The notes below the pieces were generated by a model. It did not search any database and had not been told where the DNA came from. It was given only the letters and a program-made list of their open reading frames with translations. Source: Naegleria gruberi (Eukaryota). Taken from it: a stretch of DNA of 64,000 nt. Location: the NCBI GenBank assembly GCA_000004985.1, contig GG738894.1, one strand, 5' to 3'. How positions within the stretch are numbered: position 1 is the first letter of the stretch; each line of letters begins with the position of its first letter. Below are positions 1 to 57,132 of the stretch, in pieces. A program made the translations under genes and the position numbers.

Positions 1-290
1 CAAACCCAAACCCAAACCCAAACCCAAACCCAAACCCAAACCCAAACCCAAACCCAAACCCAAACCCAAACCCAAACCCAAACCCAAACCCAAACCCAAA
101 CCCAAACCCAAACCCAAACCCAAACCCAAACCCAAACCCAAACCCAAACCCAAACCCAAACCCAAACCCAAACCCAAACCCAAACCCAAACCCAAACCCA
201 AACCCAAACCCAAACCCAAACCCAAACCCAAACCCAAACCCAAACCCAAACCCAAACCCAAACCCAAACCCAAACCCAAACCCAAACCCA
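1..290. repeat. Telomeric repeat array, about 48 tandem copies of CCCAAA (G-strand TTTGGG), at the start of the window. It marks the physical chromosome end.
   Basis: Perfect 6-nt periodicity caaacc from position 1 to 290, ending abruptly at cgactaaggt. C-rich strand reads 5'->3' on the top strand, as expected for a left telomere. Confidence 0.9.
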
Positions 291-4859: not shown

Positions 4860-7800
4860 TTACTTTATTCTGACTTTCTCTTTGATTTGATTGAGTGTAT
4901 CAACCCATTCATCACGTTCTTCCTTAGTTTGAGCAGCTAAAAAGTAATCACGAGTTGGAATTTCAATTCTAAATACGAAACGTTTCTTACTTGATCTTTC
5001 AGGAATCATTTCAATATTCAAAACCTGTCTCATATCAATACATCCTAATTGCTTATCGAATTTATCTGCTTCATCATTGAAATAATAAACATAAAATCCT
5101 TCAATTCTAAAGTAACGCTTCTTATACATGTTTAGTTTAGGACCTTTCTTTTCCAAATAACCATGCTTGTCAGCATTCATTGAAGATGGTTTGACACCAA
5201 ACTTCTTTTCCAAAATGTTAGGTCTTGGTGAACGAACATAAACTTCTTCCTCTTGTGTAATTACTGATTTTCTATCAACAAATGGTTGAGAAACATCAAA
5301 GGTTGAAAGTTGATTGGAAAGTGTTGTCAAATGTTTCTTATTGACAGTTACTGACATACGTTGTGAAAGTTTTTCCTTTTCATGTTGAGAGTTAGATCTA
5401 GATGTTTGAGCGTCCATCTTTTTAGGTTGAATAACATCACCTCCTTTTTTAGGTTGTTGGAATGATTCAATCTTTACGCCTGTATACTTTTTGAGGAATT
5501 TAATTTCACGTTCCAATGTTTCTACCTTTTCACGTTCTTGTAATAGGAGAATTGTATTCGATTCTTGAGATTGTTGGAGTGTAGAGAGAGTCTTTTTACG
5601 ATAGGCCTTAATCTTCTTATATTTTTGATAGACTTCATCCTTTTCTTGTTCCAATTTCTTCATTTGTTCCTTCAAGTTTTCTTCAGCATCTTTGAGAGTG
5701 GTAATTTCCTTTCTGAGTTGTTCAACTTGTTCCATATCGGTGGATTGCTTCTTGCTAATTTCTTCCTTTAACTTTTTGAGTTCAGTTTCAAGATTTTGAA
5801 TTTGCTCCTTGTGCATCTTTTCAGTTTCTTGAGCTTTCATCTTGGAAATTTCCATTTCTGTATTCTTTTTACGAGCAGTATTGAGTTTGACAGTTAAATC
5901 ATCAATAGTTTCTTTGAGTTTTTGACTATTGCCCTTATCTTCGAATGCAGATCTTAGTGAAGCGGTTGTGGAAGAGTTGGCACTTATGGATAATCTGGAA
6001 GATTTTTCTACAGCAGTTTGATATTGATTGAACAATTGTTGATATTCGTAAATCTTATCGTCAAGACTCTTCAAAGCAATTTCAGCTGCTTTTTCTCTTG
6101 CCTTTAAGTTTTCTCTCTTGGCCAAATTGAGTTGTTCCATCAACAGTTTGTTCTTGCTCTTCATCTTTTCGATTAATTGATGAGATGGATCATCAGAAGA
6201 AAGTTGTGAAATTTCCTTAGCATTATGATTATCTTCATCTTCAACAAGTTTCTTTTCAATTTGAGTTAGTTTTTCACTAATCTCTTCGTACATCTTTTTG
6301 TAATCTTCGCATTGAATCTTCAACACATTGACAGTTTCAGCATCAATTTCCATCTTTTTCACAGATAAACTAGATTCCAATCCAGAGCTATTAGATTGTG
6401 TGACTGAGAAACGTGACGAAAGAACTGAATTGGTTGGCTTGGTGGTAGATGCGGAAGTTTCTAACTTTTTCACAGCTTCTTTCAATTCATTGATTTCCTT
6501 AGTCTTTTGAGCAAGCTTTTCATTCAATTCTTCCTTTGTAGAATCAGATTGAATGAGTTTTTCCTTCAATTCTTGAATTTCTGCATGAGTTTTTTGTAAA
6601 CTCTCATCGTGGCGAATCTTTTCCTGTTCTAAACTTTCCTTCAATTCGGTAACTTGTCTAAACTTCTTTTCCAAATCTTCAAGTGATGTTTCAGCAGTGC
6701 TTGCTTGTTTCTTATATTGAACTACAGCTTCGTGTTCCTTCTTTAAATTGGCTTCCAATTCGGTGACTTTAGTTTTCAACGAACTCACTTGTTCATTCAA
6801 TTCATGTTTCTCAGTGAGGACCTTCTTGAAAAGAGTATCAGAAATTTCTGCCTTTTCTTCATTAACAGGGGATGGTGGAGAAGAAGGTGTCATTGGTGAT
6901 TCATCAACTGGTGTTGATGGCTCCTTCTTGACTTCGAAAGAAGAGACAGGTGTTGATGGCAGTTGTTGCCTTTGTGGAACAGGTGGTGCTTGTTCAGGTT
7001 TTACATTACTACTACTAATTGCTGTTGATGAAGAAGTTGATGGTTGACTTATTGGGGTAATTTCGGCAACACCCTCCAAACTGACATAATTGATAGAAAC
7101 CTCACTTGACATTTCACACAGTAAATTGCCCAAATTCAAATTTGGAACTGTTTGCCTTTCAACAAGGGCAGGTAATGATGATTGTGACAAGGTAATAAAT
7201 CCGAAACTTGCTGTATTGATGAAAATTCGCGAGAATAACAGACAACGAAGAGTTGTTTCGAAATAATCAAACTCATCTGATTCACTGTGAATTGCTTCTG
7301 TTACTTGTTGGAAAGTTCTGAATCCTGTTGGACGTGTTTGTTTGTGTGGATCAGTTGATGATTCAGCATCAATATCAATAATGGTCAATCGACCTTCTTT
7401 GGTGAGTTTAGTATTGGTATCACTTTGAAGAAGTTTAATTTCAAAGAAAAGTGAACTATGTTCTATAATATTTCAATGAATCATTCAAGTTGAAAAGAAT
7501 AATGAATAGTTTAAATTGTTTTCTAATATAAATTTCCAATAAAAAAACAAACCTTTTGATCTCTTTTCTAAAGATTTTGAAATAAATTGGAATAGTTCAA
7601 CTTCACTCGTCACAAATTCTTCATGTAATCCAGCAATTTCAACACTATTCGTTTCATCATTGACCAATACTTCCAAATGTGCAGAATTGACATCATTTGC
7701 CAAATCATGATCAGCCAGTAAATCAGTCATGAGTGCTTCACCATTATCCAAACCACAAATTTCAAAACTTGTCATGGAAACTGAAAATTCAATTTCAGGT

Positions 7801-50006: not shown

Positions 50007-50993
50007 TTATAAAAGAGAGCAATACCAATTTTTAATCTCCTCTTCATTTGCATCCTTTTCGAAAAAACTATTGAAGGTAAATTGTAATTGAATGAACCAC
50101 ACTGGTACATAAATATGTTTGAAATTCTTACAGTCAATCTCCACAAATACTGAGCGTCTATATTCATACGCTTTCTGTACAGCATCTTTCAAGCATACTG
50201 GTTTTCTTTCGTAGTGAGAATAATTCTTTTCTGAATGTAATCCTAAAACTATTCCTGTATCAGTATTATTAGATTGTAAACCCGCTAAGAACCATTCATC
50301 TAATTTGTTGAATGTCGATTCATGATCCATTGAAAATGCAAATAAACATTTCACATCATATTCTTGATGCCATTTATCTTCAATCATTTCACTCTTGGAG
50401 TAGAATCTTTCAACTCCATTTGTCTCCCAAATCTGATGCTTACAACGATTCTCCTCATTGGGAATTGTACATATTTTTGAAAAGTAATAAGGCCCAATAC
50501 CAACATTTTCCCTAAATTTTCCATGTTGAATAAAAGTTCCCAAAGTTGATTTTCCAATACCACTATCTCCTAAAATCATATAATTAATTGTTTGATCTTT
50601 GTGAGCTATTTCAAAATTAGGAAAAAATAATCGATAGAAATTCAACAATTCCAACTCGTTAGGATTGAGAATTTGTGAAATTTCTTCTGTATTTCTTTCC
50701 GGATCATGATTTCCCAATTTAAAAGCCAATTTTAACAAGTGTAATCGTATGAAATATTTTGCATTTCCAATTAATTTTACATGATCACTATTCGAATTTT
50801 CCGCGTTTTGATAAATTGAAATATTTAAATCTGATTTCTCGCCATTACAAAATTTACAAATATCATCACTAATAACAATGCAGGAATTTCTAATCAAGTT
50901 GTGAATATTCCGATTAACAGTGAGGAGAGAAGTTAAAACATCAATCGGTTCTAAAAATTGAATAATCTCCAACCAAGCAAGATCTTGCGCCAT
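50007..50993 (-). CDS. F-box-like N-terminus fused to a divergent Ras-superfamily small-GTPase-like domain
   Basis: ATG 50993 after an A8 run. N-terminal LAWLEIIQFLEPIDVLTSLLTVNRNIHNLI is F-box-like. G1 ILGDSGIGKST. G3 WETNGVERF (the DTAGQ equivalent with the catalytic Gln replaced). No clean NKxD. Confidence 0.5.
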   Translation of the reverse strand: MAQDLAWLEIIQFLEPIDVLTSLLTVNRNIHNLIRNSCIVISDDICKFCNGEKSDLNISIYQNAENSNSDHVKLIGNAKYFIRLHLLKLAFKLGNHDPERNTEEISQILNPNELELLNFYRLFFPNFEIAHKDQTINYMILGDSGIGKSTLGTFIQHGKFRENVGIGPYYFSKICTIPNEENRCKHQIWETNGVERFYSKSEMIEDKWHQEYDVKCLFAFSMDHESTFNKLDEWFLAGLQSNNTDTGIVLGLHSEKNYSHYERKPVCLKDAVQKAYEYRRSVFVEIDCKNFKHIYVPVWFIQLQFTFNSFFEKDANEEEIKNWYCSLL

Positions 50994-51660: not shown

Positions 51661-54600
51661 ATGAAACGGGTTGGAATTTCCCAGAGGAAGATCCATCATT
51701 TGATTTTAATTTTGATTTTCCTTGTCTTGTTTGTGATTAATAATTATGAATTATTAATTAATAATCATAATGCTGATTTGGGATCATCACCAGAGGCAGT
51801 GTTCATGGGAGGTCTTGTTAATGGTGCTTCTTATCGATTTTTAGGTGAATTAACCAATTCAACCAAAACAAATGTTTCTGCAGTCTATGTAGATGCACAA
51901 TCAGGTCAATCATTCACTAATTATACTGTATCGACTTCAACTTCAACGATTGGTTTTGGATCATTTTCATATACCTATGAAAGTGATGAATTTTCATGGC
52001 AAATTGTGATGGACAATGAATTGCCTTCATTTACCAATACGAGTAGTAGTATTTCATTGAGATATTATCGATTGGTACATAAGAATATATTGCTGACTGA
52101 TTTATCAAAGAATTTATTTATTAGTGTGGAGAATATTTCGACAGTGTTGACTCCTCTCAATCTGTTGAATGGATCTAATGGATTGGATATTAGTGTGAAT
52201 GGAATGCTTATTAGATTGAATGGAACAACTAAGGGAAAGTACTCCAATTCATCAAAATTGGTGGATATTCCTGAATTGTTTACATCTTCCTATTCATTAC
52301 AATTGTTTTCAATTCAATTGAATACATCAAAATTACAAGATAATAGTACCTATCCTGCAGTGGTAGATCCATCGAAAATTTTGGTCAATTACACTCAACT
52401 CAAAGGAAAGAATCCAACATATTCCTACCAGGTTCTCGAATCAGTGAAGGAATATATCAAGGTTCTTTCAGTAACCACTGTTTCATTGAAGAATTTGTGC
52501 AGTTCTTCCTCTCCTATTGTGGCCTTTACGTGGGGCTCTTGGAAATTGTGGTTCGTTTTGGCCATTGTCATTCTAATGTTGCTCATGCTTGTGGCTTCAT
52601 GGTGGAGGCCATACTTTATTGTTTTCATGACTTTGGTCATTTTGAATCTTTCAGGAATAATTAACCTTACACAAACTCTGAGTGGTTTCTCTAATGATGG
52701 TATGCTGACAGTCTTGCTGCTCTTCCCTATTGTCCAACCATTATCGGAGAATTCATTAGTATTGAGAGGATCCAAGTTAGTATTTGGTACAGCCAAGTAT
52801 GGTTTATGGTTGTGTATGCTTAGATTATGTTTGGTTATTTCAGTAATTAGTCCTTTCATTAATAATACTCCAATTGTCGTTACAGCCCTTCCAATTATTG
52901 TAAGTTTATTATGAATATTTCTCTTATTTTGTTTCTTCTATAATATTTTAATATTTATTTCATTAAAATAGAAAGATTGGGCCAGAGAAAATAACATTGC
53001 TGCCTCCAAATTCTTAATGGCCATGTGTTATATTACAACAGCTGCAGGCTTAATGACCTTGATTGGTACCAGTACAAACATTGTGACCAATGGTCTATTT
53101 ACTGCCTACGGTTATGAGGCTTTCACATTCTACGAATTTTTCTACATTGGATCAATTTTGACATTTATTACAATCATTTATTTGTGTACATATGGATTGT
53201 GGGTCTCTCCAAATAGAAAAGGTGGTATGTTTAGATTGGCCAGAGAAAGAGGTGAACAATTCTTGACAAAACTTGCAGTCGAAAGAAGGAATTCACCTTT
53301 AATTGGTAAGAACAAGACCAAAGTTATTACTTATTTGGGATTGGACAAGTTGGAAGTTGTTGAAATTATCAGAAAAAAGACCAAACAAGCACCAGCCGCC
53401 ACACCATCCAATGACCGATCGAATACTGATTCACCAACTAGGGTGGAGGTGACCACAATTATGAGTTCAAACGATGATGACAATTTGGAACATATTGTGC
53501 CAGTTCCTGACGATTTGACCATTCAACTCTATGATACCATCATTTTCAAAGGTCATCCAACCAATATTTTAAAACTCCACTCCATGGTTGGTGTTTCACA
53601 AAATATTGAACAAGATCCAAAGGAAGAATCCAACATTTTGCACACCATGTTGGGAACTGAAAATTTACAAATCGATACCAATGTAAATAATGCAAACAAT
53701 ACAGAAAAGAAGAGTCCACTTTCTCCAAGAAAGCCATCAACTGCTGAAGAGAATGATCAAGAAGTTGTTGTGGAAATTAGTGATAGTGAGGCTGCTTCTA
53801 CCAATGATTTGATTATTGGTGAGACAAATTCTACAGAGGATCAATTTTCCTCTGCACCACCAATTCCAAAAACCTCATTGAAAAATAAGATTAAGGAACA
53901 AAATCTTCATGAAATGGTTCTCAAAAAGTCAGTTGAAGAAGAAGAAAAGAGAAAGTCTTCTGTTGAAGAAGAGACTGAAATGGAGGAAATACAAATTCCA
54001 AATGATGTGGAAATTCCATCAAACCCTACTGATTCAGAAAAAAGAATAGACACAATTGACAATACAGAAAATAAGACAGTCGACACTACAACTGAAAGTA
54101 AAAAGAAGGAGGATGCCTCTGAAGCAGAATCTGAGAATGAACCAGAATTTTTCGAAGTGGTCATTAGTACCTTCAACCCATGCATGGGTGAATTATACTC
54201 TGATTTTGAAAAGAGATATGGAGTTGTCATTCTTGCAGTTCGTCACAATAAGGGTCTCGAAACTAAAACAGATATCACTGATTTCAAGACTACAAAGGTT
54301 AAAGCAGGAGATACTTTATTACTTATTGGAAAGGCTGATTTCTATTCCAAGTGGCATGAACTAAGGATTTCTATGTCATTTCCAGATGTAATGTTTCACC
54401 AAAGGAGAAGAGCAAACATCAAAAATTTATTGTCAAGATTCCATTCACAAAGAAATCAGTCAACTTGTGGTGGTGGGAACACTTGATTTTCCCATTCTTT
54501 ATTGCAATGATTGCTGTTGCCATTGCTGGATATTCAATGCTTCAATGTGCTATGGTTACTTTGTGTGTTGTAATTATTTTCAGATTAATCAATCCAATTA

Positions 54601-55064
54601 AGGCAATTGAATCTATCGAGTGGCCACTTATTGCCTTGATCGGTTCTAGTTTTGGTATTGGTACTGCAATTACTCAATCAGGTATGGGTGAGGCTCTTGC
54701 AGAATTATTAAGATTGATGAATGTTCCAGTTATTCTACTTCCAGCATTTGTCGTTTTCATTACTCTAGTAGTGACTGCTGTCATTACCAATAATGCTGCT
54801 GTGGCTGTTTGTTTCCCATTGGCTATGGCTATTGCTAGATCGTACGGTTTAAATCCTCGATGCTTTGCCATGTGTGTCTGTATTGCTGCCTCCTCTGTAT
54901 TTGCCACTCCAATTGGCTACCAATGCAATATGATGATTATGGGACCTGGTGGTTATTCCTTTATCGATTATGTGAAAATTGGTTTACCATTGACAATTAT
55001 TTACTTTTTCGCCGTTAGTACATTTGTTCCACTCATTTGGGGATTGGAAGTTCCAAACTTTTAA
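51661..55064 (+). CDS. SLC13/DASS-superfamily permease of the bacterial YfbS type, with two internal TrkA-C domains. It is preceded by a eukaryote-style N-terminal signal anchor and glycosylated ectodomain. Three exons.
   Basis: Exon 1 51661-52902 (ectodomain of about 270 aa rich in N-x-S/T, then TM helices). A 66-nt GTAAGT..ATAG intron at 52903-52968. Exon 2 52969-54387 (..LPII|KDWARENNIAASKFLMAMCYITTAAGLMTLIGTSTNIV; TrkA-C-like GELYSDFEKRYGVVILAVRHNKG...GDTLLLIGK). A putative 50-nt intron at 54388-54437 (GTAATG..AAG) rejoins frame to ..IPFTKKSVNLWWWEHLIF.. C-terminal permease repeat to 55064. Confidence 0.6.
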
Positions 55065-55143: not shown

Positions 55144-55965
55144 TCAAACTTCTTTCCTTTTACAGAAAATCAAACAGCTCCAAATAAATACTGTTAATAC
55201 AATTGCCAAACAACACAATACAATACAAGCAATTCCTCCTCCTTTGAGACTTGTTTGAAGTGCCAACAATCTGTCCACTTCATCCAAATTTATAATTGGT
55301 TTCACAGAGAGTGTCACATTAGAACTCAACACTCCACTAATCAAAGTAGAATTATTCGAAAATTGATTATTCAAGTTATTGAGATACCACTCTGTTTCAT
55401 TCATGTAGCAGATTCCTTTTCCCAAATTAATGCTTGTCAATTCAATAGTCGAAAATAATCGATTAGTTTCAAGAGTGGTATTTAATTGTGGGAAACGATC
55501 ATCCTCAATTCGAATCAAACTTGCACATTTTTTCACTTTACAAACATTCGTATAATAAGTCGTCGATCCACAATAATAAAAACTATCCACACATTTTGCA
55601 GTAACATTCAACACTGTACAATTCATAACAAATTGATCCCTCACCATACTTTCTCTTTCAATTGAAACCACAACTTTCGAATTGGGTGAACAACATTCGA
55701 ATAACAATCCAGCACTCGCACCCAACAATCCAAGTACCAAGGCAGGTAAAACAAGCACTCCAACCACCAATAAGAACGTCCAATGCTTCCTCCCGAATGC
55801 ATTCTCCAACGAGTGAGGAATACTTGTCGGTCTAGTGCCCAAATTAACAACGACCGTAGTGGATTGTGCAATTTGTGCGTTTTGACCTGCAGAGGCCTCC
55901 CGTGGTGGGATGGCTGCTGGATTGGAATGCGAGGTGGAGGGAATGTGGGCTGGTAGAGTAGACAA
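55144..55965 (-). CDS. Membrane glycoprotein-like ORF without an identifiable ATG start. It may be a pseudogene or a mis-joined 3' portion of the upstream gene.
   Basis: A 273-aa ORF with an internal TM (LLVVGVLVLPALVLGLLGASAGLL) and a C-terminal TM (GIACIVLCCLAIVLTVFIW). The track start is TTG. No ATG exists between it and the stop of the upstream gene at 56075. Confidence 0.3.
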   Translation of the reverse strand: MSTLPAHIPSTSHSNPAAIPPREASAGQNAQIAQSTTVVVNLGTRPTSIPHSLENAFGRKHWTFLLVVGVLVLPALVLGLLGASAGLLFECCSPNSKVVVSIERESMVRDQFVMNCTVLNVTAKCVDSFYYCGSTTYYTNVCKVKKCASLIRIEDDRFPQLNTTLETNRLFSTIELTSINLGKGICYMNETEWYLNNLNNQFSNNSTLISGVLSSNVTLSVKPIINLDEVDRLLALQTSLKGGGIACIVLCCLAIVLTVFIWSCLIFCKRKEV

Positions 55966-56074: not shown

Positions 56075-56965
56075 TTAAACATGATTAACACTTGAATAGT
56101 AATAAACCACTGCTTCAGTTTGTTGCGCAGCATTCGAAGTATTTCTATCCGAATCTTGTTCATAATTCTCCATTGCAGTAGAAGAATACTCAACTGTTGA
56201 AGCTTCTGTATATCTACGTGAATTCTCACCTCTATCTCCCACATTATCAGCATTTTCATTTTCCAATTGATCACTACTTGCATTACTTGTTGAACGATAT
56301 GGATTCTTTCCATTCAAAACATCCAAAACCTTAAAACAACAATTAGAACTCCAATCTCCTTCTGAAATTGTCTTGTGAATTCCAAATGCACAAATTGGTA
56401 AGACACAAAATACTAAAATGAGACCAACAGGGACCAAAATGAATGGAAGAATGCAATTGACATCACATTGGTTGACTGCAGTGGTTGATTGAGTGGAATT
56501 GGAATTGGTTTCAGTTAGGACATTCAGAAATTGTGTTGAAATTTCGTTAGCTGAAACTATTAGAATCGAATGAGTTGACGAATGAATGAGCATGAATAGT
56601 ATAAAGGAGAGAATTAAATATTGTTTCCATTTCAATAACTGAAACTTTTTCTGCAACAATTGTGATTTCATATAATTTCTTCTTGTTTTTTGAATTTTCC
56701 CTTTTTCATATTCATCACATTTGTATTGTTGTAATTTCTTCAACTTATTATTGGTAATAATATTAATAATCCTATTCCTTCTTGTAGTGTCATCTTGATC
56801 ATCGGAATTACAAGTTATAGTAGAATTAATACTACTGTCATATTGTGGTTGTTGCTGAGAGGATTCTCTTCCATGAATTGTCACACTTGATGAATTCTCC
56901 ATCACAGTTGTGGCCCTATCATGACATTGTTGGTGGTGTATGAACATTTTTTGTTTGTTGTTCAT
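56075..56965 (-). CDS. Single-pass membrane protein, unknown function
   Basis: The ORF-track start is TTG. In-frame ATGs lie at 56965 and 56947 (the latter in an A-rich context). TM FILVPVGLILVFCVLPICAF. S/N-rich tail. Confidence 0.4.
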   Translation of the reverse strand: MNNKQKMFIHHQQCHDRATTVMENSSSVTIHGRESSQQQPQYDSSINSTITCNSDDQDDTTRRNRIINIITNNKLKKLQQYKCDEYEKGKIQKTRRNYMKSQLLQKKFQLLKWKQYLILSFILFMLIHSSTHSILIVSANEISTQFLNVLTETNSNSTQSTTAVNQCDVNCILPFILVPVGLILVFCVLPICAFGIHKTISEGDWSSNCCFKVLDVLNGKNPYRSTSNASSDQLENENADNVGDRGENSRRYTEASTVEYSSTAMENYEQDSDRNTSNAAQQTEAVVYYYSSVNHV

Positions 56966-57132
56966 GAAATAGAAGAGACTATTGTGACACAAACAACAAC
57001 TTGCATTAATAACGGCATTGGGTGGAGTTGAAGTTCGATATTGTGCGGCCTCTAATTGTCAAAAATAGTTTTGTTTTATTATTTCATGATCCTCACAAAA
57101 ACGATAACAAGTTATTTGGAGTTCGATAACAA

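What the first reader, a model, noticed from the sequence alone, without database searches (positions are those of the whole stretch)
51661..55064. Bacterial YfbS-type TrkA-C/SLC13 permease that has gained introns and a large glycosylated N-terminal ectodomain
The permease repeat and twin TrkA-C regulatory domains are bacterial in character, but the gene has two to three spliceosomal introns. It also has a signal anchor plus an N-glycosylation-rich extracellular domain of about 270 aa that bacterial homologs lack. This is a clear case of a domesticated prokaryotic transporter acquiring a eukaryotic sensor-like appendage.
Basis: partly seen in the sequence, partly recalled or inferred. Interest (0 to 1): 0.5.

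Follow-up and report, generated by a model that had tools for sequence, protein, structure and literature searches.

The report
Naegleria anion permease with added ectodomain
This is an annotated but uncharacterised Naegleria gruberi membrane transporter of a bacterial-style family, probably for sulfate, that carries an amoeba-lineage-specific sugar-coated outer domain; it has one real intron, and the second "intron" only compensates for a missing base in the sequence.

Summary
The gene is real and matches the given bounds (51661-55064, + strand). It is Naegleria gruberi NAEGRDRAFT_81068 (XP_002672862.1).

**Confirmed**
- A CitMHS/DASS-type permease whose two halves are separated by two cytoplasmic TrkA-C domains.
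- An N-terminal signal anchor followed by a sequon-rich ectodomain of about 260 aa. It lies in the same exon as the first permease helices.
- The ectodomain occurs only in this heterolobosean permease family: 11 hits among 1.84 billion cluster representatives.

**Corrected**
- Only one intron is real: 52900-52971, 72 nt, 14% GC.
- The proposed intron at 54388-54437 is coding sequence. The window lacks one A at about 54358. A contig 98.9% identical at the DNA level has that A and reads straight through the conserved DFYVISRCNV motif.
- The N. fowleri and N. lovaniensis orthologues have no introns.

**Origin and function**
- The closest relatives outside Heterolobosea are roughly 592-aa Bacillales permeases. 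Three of the four examined sit in sulfate-assimilation operons.
- Algal proteins (SAC1/SLT, Heterosigma, Mesostigma) share the architecture, and my trees do not resolve the origin. Horizontal transfer is plausible but unproven.
- Nothing supports a sensor role for the ectodomain.

Interest is low to moderate.

The parts
51661..51759 (+). Start codon and N-terminal signal anchor or signal peptide (aa 1-33: MKRVGISQRKIHH-LILILIFLVLFV...)
   Evidence: Kyte-Doolittle peak of 2.5 at aa 15-33, preceded by K/R residues. There is an in-frame stop upstream. The JGI model P0121 uses the same start.
51760..52539 (+). Heterolobosea-specific, sequon-rich ectodomain (aa 34-293)
52540..52899 (+). Permease N-half, first part (three helices plus the hairpin with the NNTP motif), in the same exon as the ectodomain
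   Evidence: One uninterrupted ORF, 51661-52914. Pfam CitMHS begins at aa 309. It aligns with bacterial homologues from their first residue.
52900..52971 (+). Genuine spliceosomal intron (72 nt, GTAAGT...AG, phase 0)
   Evidence: GC is 13.9% against 34-37% in the exons. An in-frame TGA lies 13 nt into the intron. Splicing restores TPIVVTALPII|KDWARENNIAASKFL without a gap against bacterial TPIVVTLTPIIKRWAKDNNFSPSKFL. The intron is present in the sister-strain contig L001 and absent from the N. lovaniensis and N. fowleri orthologues.
52972..53223 (+). Permease N-half, second part (two helices, GTSTN break)
   Evidence: Alignment A1 and hydropathy.
53239..53604 (+). TrkA-C domain 1, interrupted by a 35-aa lineage-specific insert (53380-53484)
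   Evidence: Pfam TrkA_C scores 19.1 bits, below the gathering score, after the insert is excised. hhalign against bacterial TrkA_C #1 gives 99.2% probability, E 2e-19. The flanks have AF2 pLDDT 86-94 and the insert is below 50.
53605..54138 (+). Low-complexity, predicted-disordered cytoplasmic linker with two conserved short motifs (ILHTMLGT, APPIPKTSL)
   Evidence: pLDDT of 31-50. The motifs are conserved across heterolobosean paralogues and absent from bacteria.
54139..54386 (+). TrkA-C domain 2, running into the conserved DFYVISR motif
54358..54360 (+). Site of a 1-nt deficit (GAAC here, GAAAC in the sister strain) that shifts the reading frame; either an assembly error or a strain-specific frameshift
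   Evidence: Aligning the window with L001 (98.9% identical) shows one extra A at 54358 in L001. It is the only indel inside the coding sequence whose length is not a multiple of 3. With the A restored, the ORF is continuous to 55064.
54388..54437 (+).
   Evidence: GC is 32%, like the exons. In the corrected frame it encodes ...CNVSPKEKSKHQKFIVK..., which is conserved in N. fowleri, N. lovaniensis and Willaertia. P0001 is an uninterrupted 682-aa ORF across this stretch. The JGI model bypasses the same frameshift with a different 35-nt GT..AG 'intron' at 54351-54385.
54462..55064 (+). Permease C-half (second repeat with the hairpin motif SSVFATPIGYQCN) and stop codon

Best explanation
The locus is Naegleria gruberi NAEGRDRAFT_81068. 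It encodes a protein of about 1,110 aa once the missing base at about 54358 is restored.

**Core.** The core is an ion-transporter-superfamily (CitMHS/DASS-like) elevator-type anion:cation symporter. It consists of two inverted 5-helix-plus-hairpin repeats. Between them, on the cytoplasmic side, sit two TrkA-C (RCK_C) ligand-binding domains that presumably regulate transport.

**Substrate.** The substrate is most likely sulfate or a related oxyanion. This rests on two inferences: the nearest bacterial homologues lie in sulfate-assimilation operons, and algal SLT/SAC1 proteins share the architecture.

**Additions found only in Heterolobosea**
- An N-terminal signal anchor plus an N-glycosylated, beta-sandwich-containing ectodomain of about 260 aa. 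It joins directly to the first permease helix. By homology to VcINDY helices 2-6, that helix starts outside the cell, so the fusion is topologically consistent.
- Long disordered inserts within and between the TrkA-C domains.

**Gene structure.** The gene has one real 72-nt intron. The apparent second intron is an artefact of a 1-nt gap in this assembly or strain.

**Shown versus inferred.** Family, architecture, gene structure and the lineage restriction of the ectodomain are shown here. Topology, substrate, TrkA-C regulation and glycosylation are inferred. The role of the ectodomain is unknown. I consider a structural, protective or trafficking role more likely than sensing.
For: - **Identity:** exact cluster membership with XP_002672862.1.
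- **Twin TrkA-C:** hhalign 99.2% and 99.6%.
- **Gene structure:**. The orthologues are single uninterrupted ORFs.
- **Ectodomain in the same gene:** it shares one ORF with the first permease helices and is conserved in 3 or more paralogue groups across Naegleria and Willaertia.
- **Lineage restriction:** 11 hits among 1.84e9 representatives.
- **Extracellular location:** sequon enrichment and conservation.
- **Substrate:** P0010, P0137 and P0142 lie next to ATP sulfurylase, APS kinase, PAPS reductase, sirohaem synthesis and sulfite reductase genes. SLT/SAC1 literature: PMC3355512, PMC8780407.
Against: - No transcript, protein or transport data were available.
- TrkA_C #1 is below Pfam's gathering score.
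- TIGR00785 (dass) scores 62.6 bits against a cut-off of 198.6.
- The PS01271 signature is matched only if the last V may be I.
- One close bacterial homologue, P0151, is not in a sulfate operon, and many family members are annotated as di/tricarboxylate transporters.
- If the frameshift is real in strain NEG-M, this particular copy would be truncated.
- The ectodomain model has only medium confidence (pLDDT 73.6; three of the five models are below 50).
Confidence: 0.75

Rival explanations
1. Reading of the first-stage reader. A bacterial YfbS-type permease entered the heterolobosean ancestor by horizontal transfer (for example from a Bacillota-like donor). It then gained introns and a eukaryotic sensor-like ectodomain.
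For: - After Heterolobosea, the top 110 or so hits of the core are proteins of about 590 aa; every one a source names is bacterial, and the best-scoring named ones are Bacillales. They are 33-34% identical over 97% of the core.
- No non-heterolobosean eukaryote appears in that list.
- Domain order and even the DFYVIS motif are shared.
- The family is monophyletic in Heterolobosea with 100% bootstrap.
Against: - Placement is unresolved. The sister relationship to bacteria has 8-40% bootstrap support, and a Heterolobosea-plus-Heterosigma clade appears in 39% of replicates.
- Algal SAC1/SLT, Heterosigma and Mesostigma proteins have the same architecture (PMC8780407).
- There is one intron in N. 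gruberi and none in the two sister-species orthologues.
- No feature of the ectodomain indicates ligand sensing.
Confidence: 0.3
2. The 1-nt deficit at about 54358 is real in strain NEG-M. This copy is then a recently inactivated or truncated gene that loses the C-terminal permease half. Paralogues P0131 and P0135 would cover the function.
For: - The base is absent from the window.
- The public JGI model had to invent a 35-nt intron to get past it.
- N. gruberi has at least two paralogues.
- The exact frameshifted ORF is in no other assembly on record, so there is no independent confirmation either way.
Against: - A contig 98.9% identical at the DNA level has the intact frame.
- All 4 substitutions downstream of the site are synonymous in the corrected frame.
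- It is the only coding-region indel that is not a multiple of three.
- It lies in a short A run, a common place for base-calling or assembly errors.
Confidence: 0.2
3. The transporter carries di/tricarboxylates such as citrate, succinate or malate, or another anion, rather than sulfate.
For: - The Pfam family is named Citrate transporter.
- The closest solved relatives, VcINDY and LaINDY, carry dicarboxylates.
- Many homologues are labelled di/tricarboxylate transporter by their sources.
- P0151 sits beside TctABC and a two-component system rather than sulfur genes.
- P0009 sits beside a second Na_sulph_symp/CitMHS-type permease and no sulfur-assimilation gene.
Against: - Three of the four closest bacterial contexts examined are operonic with sat, cysC and cysH.
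- Source names in this family are automatic annotations.
- The near-match to the Na:sulfate signature PS01271.
- NaS1 with bound sulfate is among the top structural matches, at 20% identity.
Confidence: 0.3
4. The protein is a transceptor like Chlamydomonas SAC1. It senses external sulfate or another cue through the ectodomain and signals through the long cytoplasmic loop.
For: - It shares the SAC1 architecture of two TrkA-C domains in the central loop (PMC8780407).
- The cytoplasmic linker contains conserved short motifs specific to Heterolobosea.
- The ectodomain is conserved across paralogues.
Against: - All transport-site motifs are intact.
- SAC1 itself has no ectodomain.
- The ectodomain shows no recognisable ligand-binding fold or conserved pocket residues. 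It has only one invariant His and one invariant Cys.
Confidence: 0.1

Closest known systems
Bacterial/archaeal 'SLC13 family permease' of the YfbS type (CitMHS PF03600 with two central TrkA_C domains, about 590-620 aa), e.g. Salinicoccus and Virgibacillus proteins P0140 and P0142
   Same: - Same domain order: 5 TM plus hairpin, TrkA_C, TrkA_C, 5 TM plus hairpin.
- 33-34% identity over 97% of the core.
- Shared NNTP and TPIGYQ hairpin motifs and the DFYVIS motif.
- Each TrkA_C matches its positional counterpart.
   Different: - The bacterial proteins lack the signal anchor and the 260-aa ectodomain.
- They lack the 35-aa insert in TrkA_C #1, the linker of about 180 aa, the KFIVKIPFT...NLWWWEH segment and the C-terminal WGLxxPNF motif.
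- The comparison with E. coli YfbS itself rests on my own knowledge; I did not test it here.
Chlamydomonas SAC1 and SLT1-3 (SAC1-like Na+/sulfate transporters) and other algal homologues (Heterosigma P0014, Mesostigma P0099)
   Same: - They are eukaryotic members of the same architecture, with TrkA-C domains in an intracellular loop (PMC8780407, PMC3355512).
- They have a probable sulfate-related function.
- Heterosigma P0014 also has a long insert in the loop.
   Different: - The algal proteins have no N-terminal ectodomain.
- SLTs have 3-4 TrkA-C domains (PMC8780407).
- Sequence distance from the Naegleria protein is 1.46-1.82, no closer than the bacterial proteins at 1.25.
VcINDY / LaINDY and metazoan SLC13 (NaS1, NaDC, NaCT, Drosophila INDY)
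   Same: - Detectable sequence homology.
   Different: - They have no TrkA-C domains.
- They carry an extra N-terminal helix that puts the N-terminus inside the cell.
- The Naegleria protein is not nested in metazoan SLC13. It matches human SLC13 at E 1e-12 and VcINDY at 4e-23, and PF00939 does not reach the threshold.
AspT aspartate:alanine antiporter (PDB 8y1x)
   Different: It belongs to a different family, is only a weak match, and has no ectodomain.

Membership tests
CitMHS / ion-transporter superfamily permease (Pfam PF03600) | Profile match above the curated threshold, covering both halves | tested here: met
   166.5 bits against a cut-off of 31.9, in two stretches spanning aa 309-1007.
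CitMHS / ion-transporter superfamily permease (Pfam PF03600) | INDY/ArsB-like fold | tested here: met
   [not shown]
YfbS / SAC1-type architecture | Two TrkA-C (RCK_C) domains between the permease halves | tested here: met
   [not shown]
DASS family sodium-coupled anion symporter (NCBIfam TIGR00785) | Score above the curated cut-off | tested here: not met
   62.6 bits against a cut-off of 198.6, and only the C-terminal 160 aa match. It is related to DASS but is not a member as NCBIfam defines the family.
Metazoan SLC13 / Na_sulph_symp (PF00939) | Pfam PF00939 match and closest similarity to animal SLC13 | tested here: not met
   PF00939 is not reported for the window protein at E <= 1. Human SLC13 proteins match at 1e-12 to 4e-11, against 4e-23 for VcINDY. 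The best full-length relatives are prokaryotic.
Sodium:sulfate symporter signature (PROSITE PS01271, pattern recalled from memory) | [STACP]-S-x(2)-F-x(2)-P-[LIVM]-[GSA]-x(3)-N-x-[LIVM]-V | tested here: inconclusive
   ASSVFATPIGYQCNMMI at aa 1053 fits every position except the last, where V is replaced by I.
Sulfate transporter (functional class) | Demonstrated sulfate transport | not testable with these tools
   The evidence is indirect only. Three of the four closest bacterial homologues examined are operonic with sat, cysC and cysH, and there is the SLT literature (PMC3355512).
Spliceosomal intron (52900-52971) | GT-AG bounds, non-coding composition, an interrupted frame, and exact restoration of conserved protein sequence | tested here: met
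   GTAAGT...AG, 13.9% GC, an in-frame TGA, and a gapless join against bacterial and Naegleria homologues. No transcript evidence was available.
Spliceosomal intron (54388-54437) | The same criteria | tested here: not met
   GC is 32%, like the exons. The stretch encodes conserved residues in the frame restored by one A that is present in L001. Orthologues read through it.
Horizontally acquired bacterial gene | Well-supported nesting within a bacterial clade, excluding other eukaryotes | tested here: inconclusive
   Neighbour-joining with Kimura distances and 100 bootstraps. Heterolobosea are monophyletic at 100%. The sister relationship to bacteria has 8-40% support, and a clade with Heterosigma has 39%. 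No maximum-likelihood tool was available.
Cu/Zn-SOD-like / CHRD-like beta sandwich (ectodomain) | Fold match plus the family's conserved metal-binding or signature residues | tested here: not met
   [not shown]

The most novel reading that the evidence does not exclude
The heterolobosean-specific glycosylated ectodomain would be a previously undescribed extracellular module. It would couple an external cue (a ligand, the cell surface, or prey or bacterial contact) to a SAC1-like sulfate transceptor, with the conserved linker motifs (ILHTMLGT, PIPK) acting as cytoplasmic signalling sites. That would make this a eukaryote-invented sensor built on a prokaryote-type permease acquired by horizontal transfer.
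Probability: 0.08. Interest if true: 0.6.

Novelty: new variant of a known kind. Interest (0 to 1): 0.25.

Why it matters
- **Annotation.** The public N. gruberi model (XP_002672862.1) deletes 12 conserved residues by way of an invented 35-nt intron. One restored base gives a protein colinear with all orthologues.
- **Biology.** Heterolobosean amoebae, including the pathogen N. fowleri, carry a small family of bacterial-style anion permeases, with at least three paralogues per species. The likely substrate is sulfate. Each carries a lineage-restricted, probably glycosylated surface domain with no relatives elsewhere.
- **Possible use.** A surface-exposed, lineage-specific domain on a nutrient transporter could serve as a Naegleria marker or antigen, and as a small case study in how eukaryotes decorate prokaryote-type transporters.
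- **Limits.** The finding does not open a long-standing question, and the evolutionary origin remains unresolved.

Tried and rejected
I built it as proposed. I rejected its third exon junction after seeing that every homologue reads through it and that L001 has an extra A.
- **Pfam and NCBIfam on the ectodomain.** Nothing was found. From reading the sequence I suspected a CHRD-like pattern (RLVHKN). It has no sequence support, so I keep it only as a fold-class remark.
- **Structure libraries.** Foldseek against the PDB gave no significant hit for the ectodomain. The afdb50 library was unavailable.
- **Independent record of the frameshifted ORF.** Looking up the exact frameshifted ORF2 product found nothing, so the frameshift in NEG-M could be neither confirmed nor refuted.
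- **Structure prediction of an insert-free core.** I used sister-strain P0001 instead.
- **Exon-finding script for N. fowleri P0004.** My recursive script failed. I located the junctions by translating the three frames instead.
- **Literature.** Searches for YfbS and for Naegleria with SLC13 returned nothing on this gene.
- **Phylogeny.** Neighbour-joining could not place the clade. I therefore make no claim about a donor.
Full report
**What is at the coordinates**

The window is eukaryotic and about 34% GC. It begins with 48 perfect CAAACC repeats, which look telomeric. Between 51661 and 55064 on the + strand lie three long ORFs in different frames: 51661-52914, 53017-54486 and 54465-55064.

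An exact cluster look-up identifies the gene as Naegleria gruberi NAEGRDRAFT_81068 / XP_002672862.1, labelled "predicted protein", 1098 aa. The gene itself is therefore already in public databases. No source names it beyond that label.

**Gene structure: intron 1 is real**

- The bounds are 52900-52971 (72 nt, GTAAGT...AG), and an in-frame TGA lies 13 nt into the intron.
- Its GC content is 13.9%, against 34-37% for the flanking exons.
- Removing it joins ...TPIVVTALPII to KDWARENNIAASKFL.... This aligns without a gap to bacterial TPIVVTLTPIIKRWAKDNNFSPSKFL and to all Naegleria and Willaertia homologues.

**Gene structure: "intron 2" is not an intron**

Every homologue reads through that region.
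- It encodes WHE(S/T)KDFYVISRCNV.PKE...KFIVKIPFT. The DFYVIS core of this motif is conserved even in bacteria.
- An ENA metagenome contig, L001, is 98.9% identical to the window over 5.1 kb. It carries one extra A at window position 54358 (GAAAC against GAAC). There, exon 2 runs uninterrupted to the stop codon as a 682-aa ORF, P0001.
- This is the only coding-region indel between the two sequences whose length is not a multiple of three.
- The putative intron has exon-like GC of 32%.
- The JGI model bypasses the same frameshift with a different 35-nt GT..AG "intron" at 54351-54385, which deletes WHETKDFYVISR.
- With the A restored, the coding sequence is 3333 nt and encodes 1110 aa.
- Between the two strains there are 10 synonymous and 5 non-synonymous codon differences. 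All 4 differences downstream of the frameshift are synonymous in the corrected frame.
- I conclude that the window has an assembly error or a very recent strain-specific frameshift. I could not decide between the two; the frameshifted ORF is in no other assembly on record.

**Gene structure in relatives**

The orthologues in N. lovaniensis (3774 nt) and N. fowleri (3963 nt) are single uninterrupted ORFs. "Gained introns" therefore reduces to one intron in the N. gruberi lineage. A N. fowleri paralogue has an intron 8 nt away from that site.

**The permease and its regulatory domains**

- Pfam gives CitMHS at 1.1e-48 across aa 309-1007, and one TrkA_C above threshold.
- The first TrkA_C is split by a 35-aa insert and scores only 19 bits once the insert is excised.
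- Profile-profile comparison matches it to bacterial TrkA_C #1 at 99.2% (E 2e-19). It matches the second domain to bacterial TrkA_C #2 at 99.6% (E 5e-24).
- An AlphaFold model of the sister-strain protein gives pLDDT of about 85-98 for most of the helices and about 76-95 for the two TrkA-C folds. The inserts score below 50.
- By sequence, the closest solved structure is VcINDY (4e-23). Human SLC13 proteins follow at about 1e-12.
- The protein is therefore not nested in metazoan SLC13. It also fails NCBIfam's DASS cut-off.

**The N-terminal domain**

- It lies in the same uninterrupted exon as the first three permease helices and hairpin. In the orthologues it lies in the same intronless ORF. 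It cannot be a separate gene.
- A basic N-terminus followed by a hydrophobic stretch (aa 15-33) forms a signal anchor or signal peptide.
- The following 260 aa or so carry 11 sequons, against 5.7 +/- 2.0 in shuffles and about 1 per 100 aa elsewhere in the protein. Sequon density is similar in homologues and several positions are conserved.
- By homology with VcINDY helices 2-6 (established structure, my own knowledge), a permease lacking INDY's first helix starts outside the membrane. An N-terminal ectodomain plus signal sequence is therefore topologically coherent, and the TrkA-C loop stays cytoplasmic.
- A profile of seven heterolobosean ectodomains, searched against 1.84 billion cluster representatives, found 11 proteins. 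All are N-terminal parts of this same permease family. Pfam finds nothing.
- Only one His and one Cys are invariant.
- The domain is lineage-specific and of unknown function. Nothing marks it as a sensor.

**Relatives and origin**

- Heterolobosea hold a small family with at least three paralogues per species: N. gruberi P0121, P0131 and P0135, plus N. fowleri, N. lovaniensis, Willaertia and unnamed metagenomic members.
- With an insert-free core as query, the next best hits are proteins of about 590 aa at 33-34% identity over 97% of the core. These include Salinicoccus, Virgibacillus, Jeotgalicoccus and Salipaludibacillus. Every hit that a source names is bacterial, and no other eukaryote appears among the top 120.
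- Eukaryotic proteins of the same architecture do exist, however. Heterosigma and Mesostigma proteins appear, and the literature describes Chlamydomonas SAC1 and SLT1-3 and red-algal, moss and lycophyte homologues (PMC3355512, PMC8780407).
- In neighbour-joining trees on 580-589 conserved columns, Heterolobosea are monophyletic (100%). Their position is unresolved. Sister to a bacterial group has 8-40% support, and an exclusive clade with Heterosigma appears in 39% of replicates.
- A bacterial origin by horizontal transfer is plausible but not demonstrated.

**Likely function**

- Three of the four closest bacterial homologues whose surroundings I could read sit immediately beside sulfate-assimilation genes. 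These are ATP sulfurylase, APS kinase and PAPS reductase, and in two cases sirohaem synthesis and the sulfite reductase flavoprotein as well. One does not. The neighbours of P0009 were uninformative.
- Two further observations point the same way: the SLT precedent and a near-match to the Na:sulfate signature.
- Together these make a cation-coupled sulfate (or related oxyanion) symporter the best guess. Carboxylate transport remains a serious alternative.

**Verdict**

- The permease belongs to a known kind. The ectodomain fusion is a lineage-specific variant, and I found no description of it in the searches run here.
- The second intron is an artefact, and the public gene model should be corrected.
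- Interest is low to moderate.

Noticed in passing
window 1-290 (and the N gap from about 1095 to about 3000): There are 48 perfect tandem copies of CAAACC, that is (TTTGGG)n on the other strand, at the very start of the window. An AT-rich stretch and a run of Ns follow. This looks like a chromosome end with a telomere-type repeat and an assembly gap.
   Followed up: partly
window 50007-50993 (-): A 328-aa ORF has a Ras/Roc small-GTPase domain at aa 139-292 (PF00071, 3e-10). An N-terminal extension of about 135 aa precedes it and has no Pfam match.
   Followed up: partly
window 55144-55965 (-) and 56075-56992 (-): Two neighbouring ORFs of 273 and 305 aa have no Pfam match. Both appear to have a single hydrophobic segment and many N-x-S/T sites, so they may be lineage-specific surface glycoproteins. 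The 273-aa ORF is conserved in the sister-strain contig L001, where it is called as 274 aa.
   Followed up: no
L007 (N. fowleri paralogue P0004), locus about 2520-2815: This paralogue has a short GT..AG intron inside the W codon of KNW|ARENN. That is 8 nt downstream of the N. gruberi intron-1 site, so the positions are close but not identical (intron sliding or independent gain). A second intron lies after ...ISET.
   Followed up: partly
window 53605-54138; alignment A1: Within the disordered cytoplasmic linker, two short motifs are conserved across heterolobosean paralogues and absent from bacteria: I(L/I)HTMLGT and (A)PPIPK(T/A)(S/T)L. The extreme C-terminus, WGLxxPNF, is conserved in the same way.
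   Followed up: no
L002, L008, L009 (bacterial loci): In several Bacillales genomes, the permease with two TrkA-C domains lies within sulfate-assimilation gene clusters, immediately upstream of the APS kinase gene. In Bacillus subtilis (from my own knowledge) the cysH operon carries the unrelated sulfate permease CysP, which suggests non-orthologous replacement.
   Followed up: partly
L006 (N. lovaniensis) 1-164 and 5411-6774: The N. lovaniensis orthologue is flanked by a hybrid histidine kinase (GAF-HisKA-HATPase-Response_reg) and a CorA-type Mg transporter. These differ from the neighbours in the N. gruberi window, so local synteny is not conserved.
   Followed up: no
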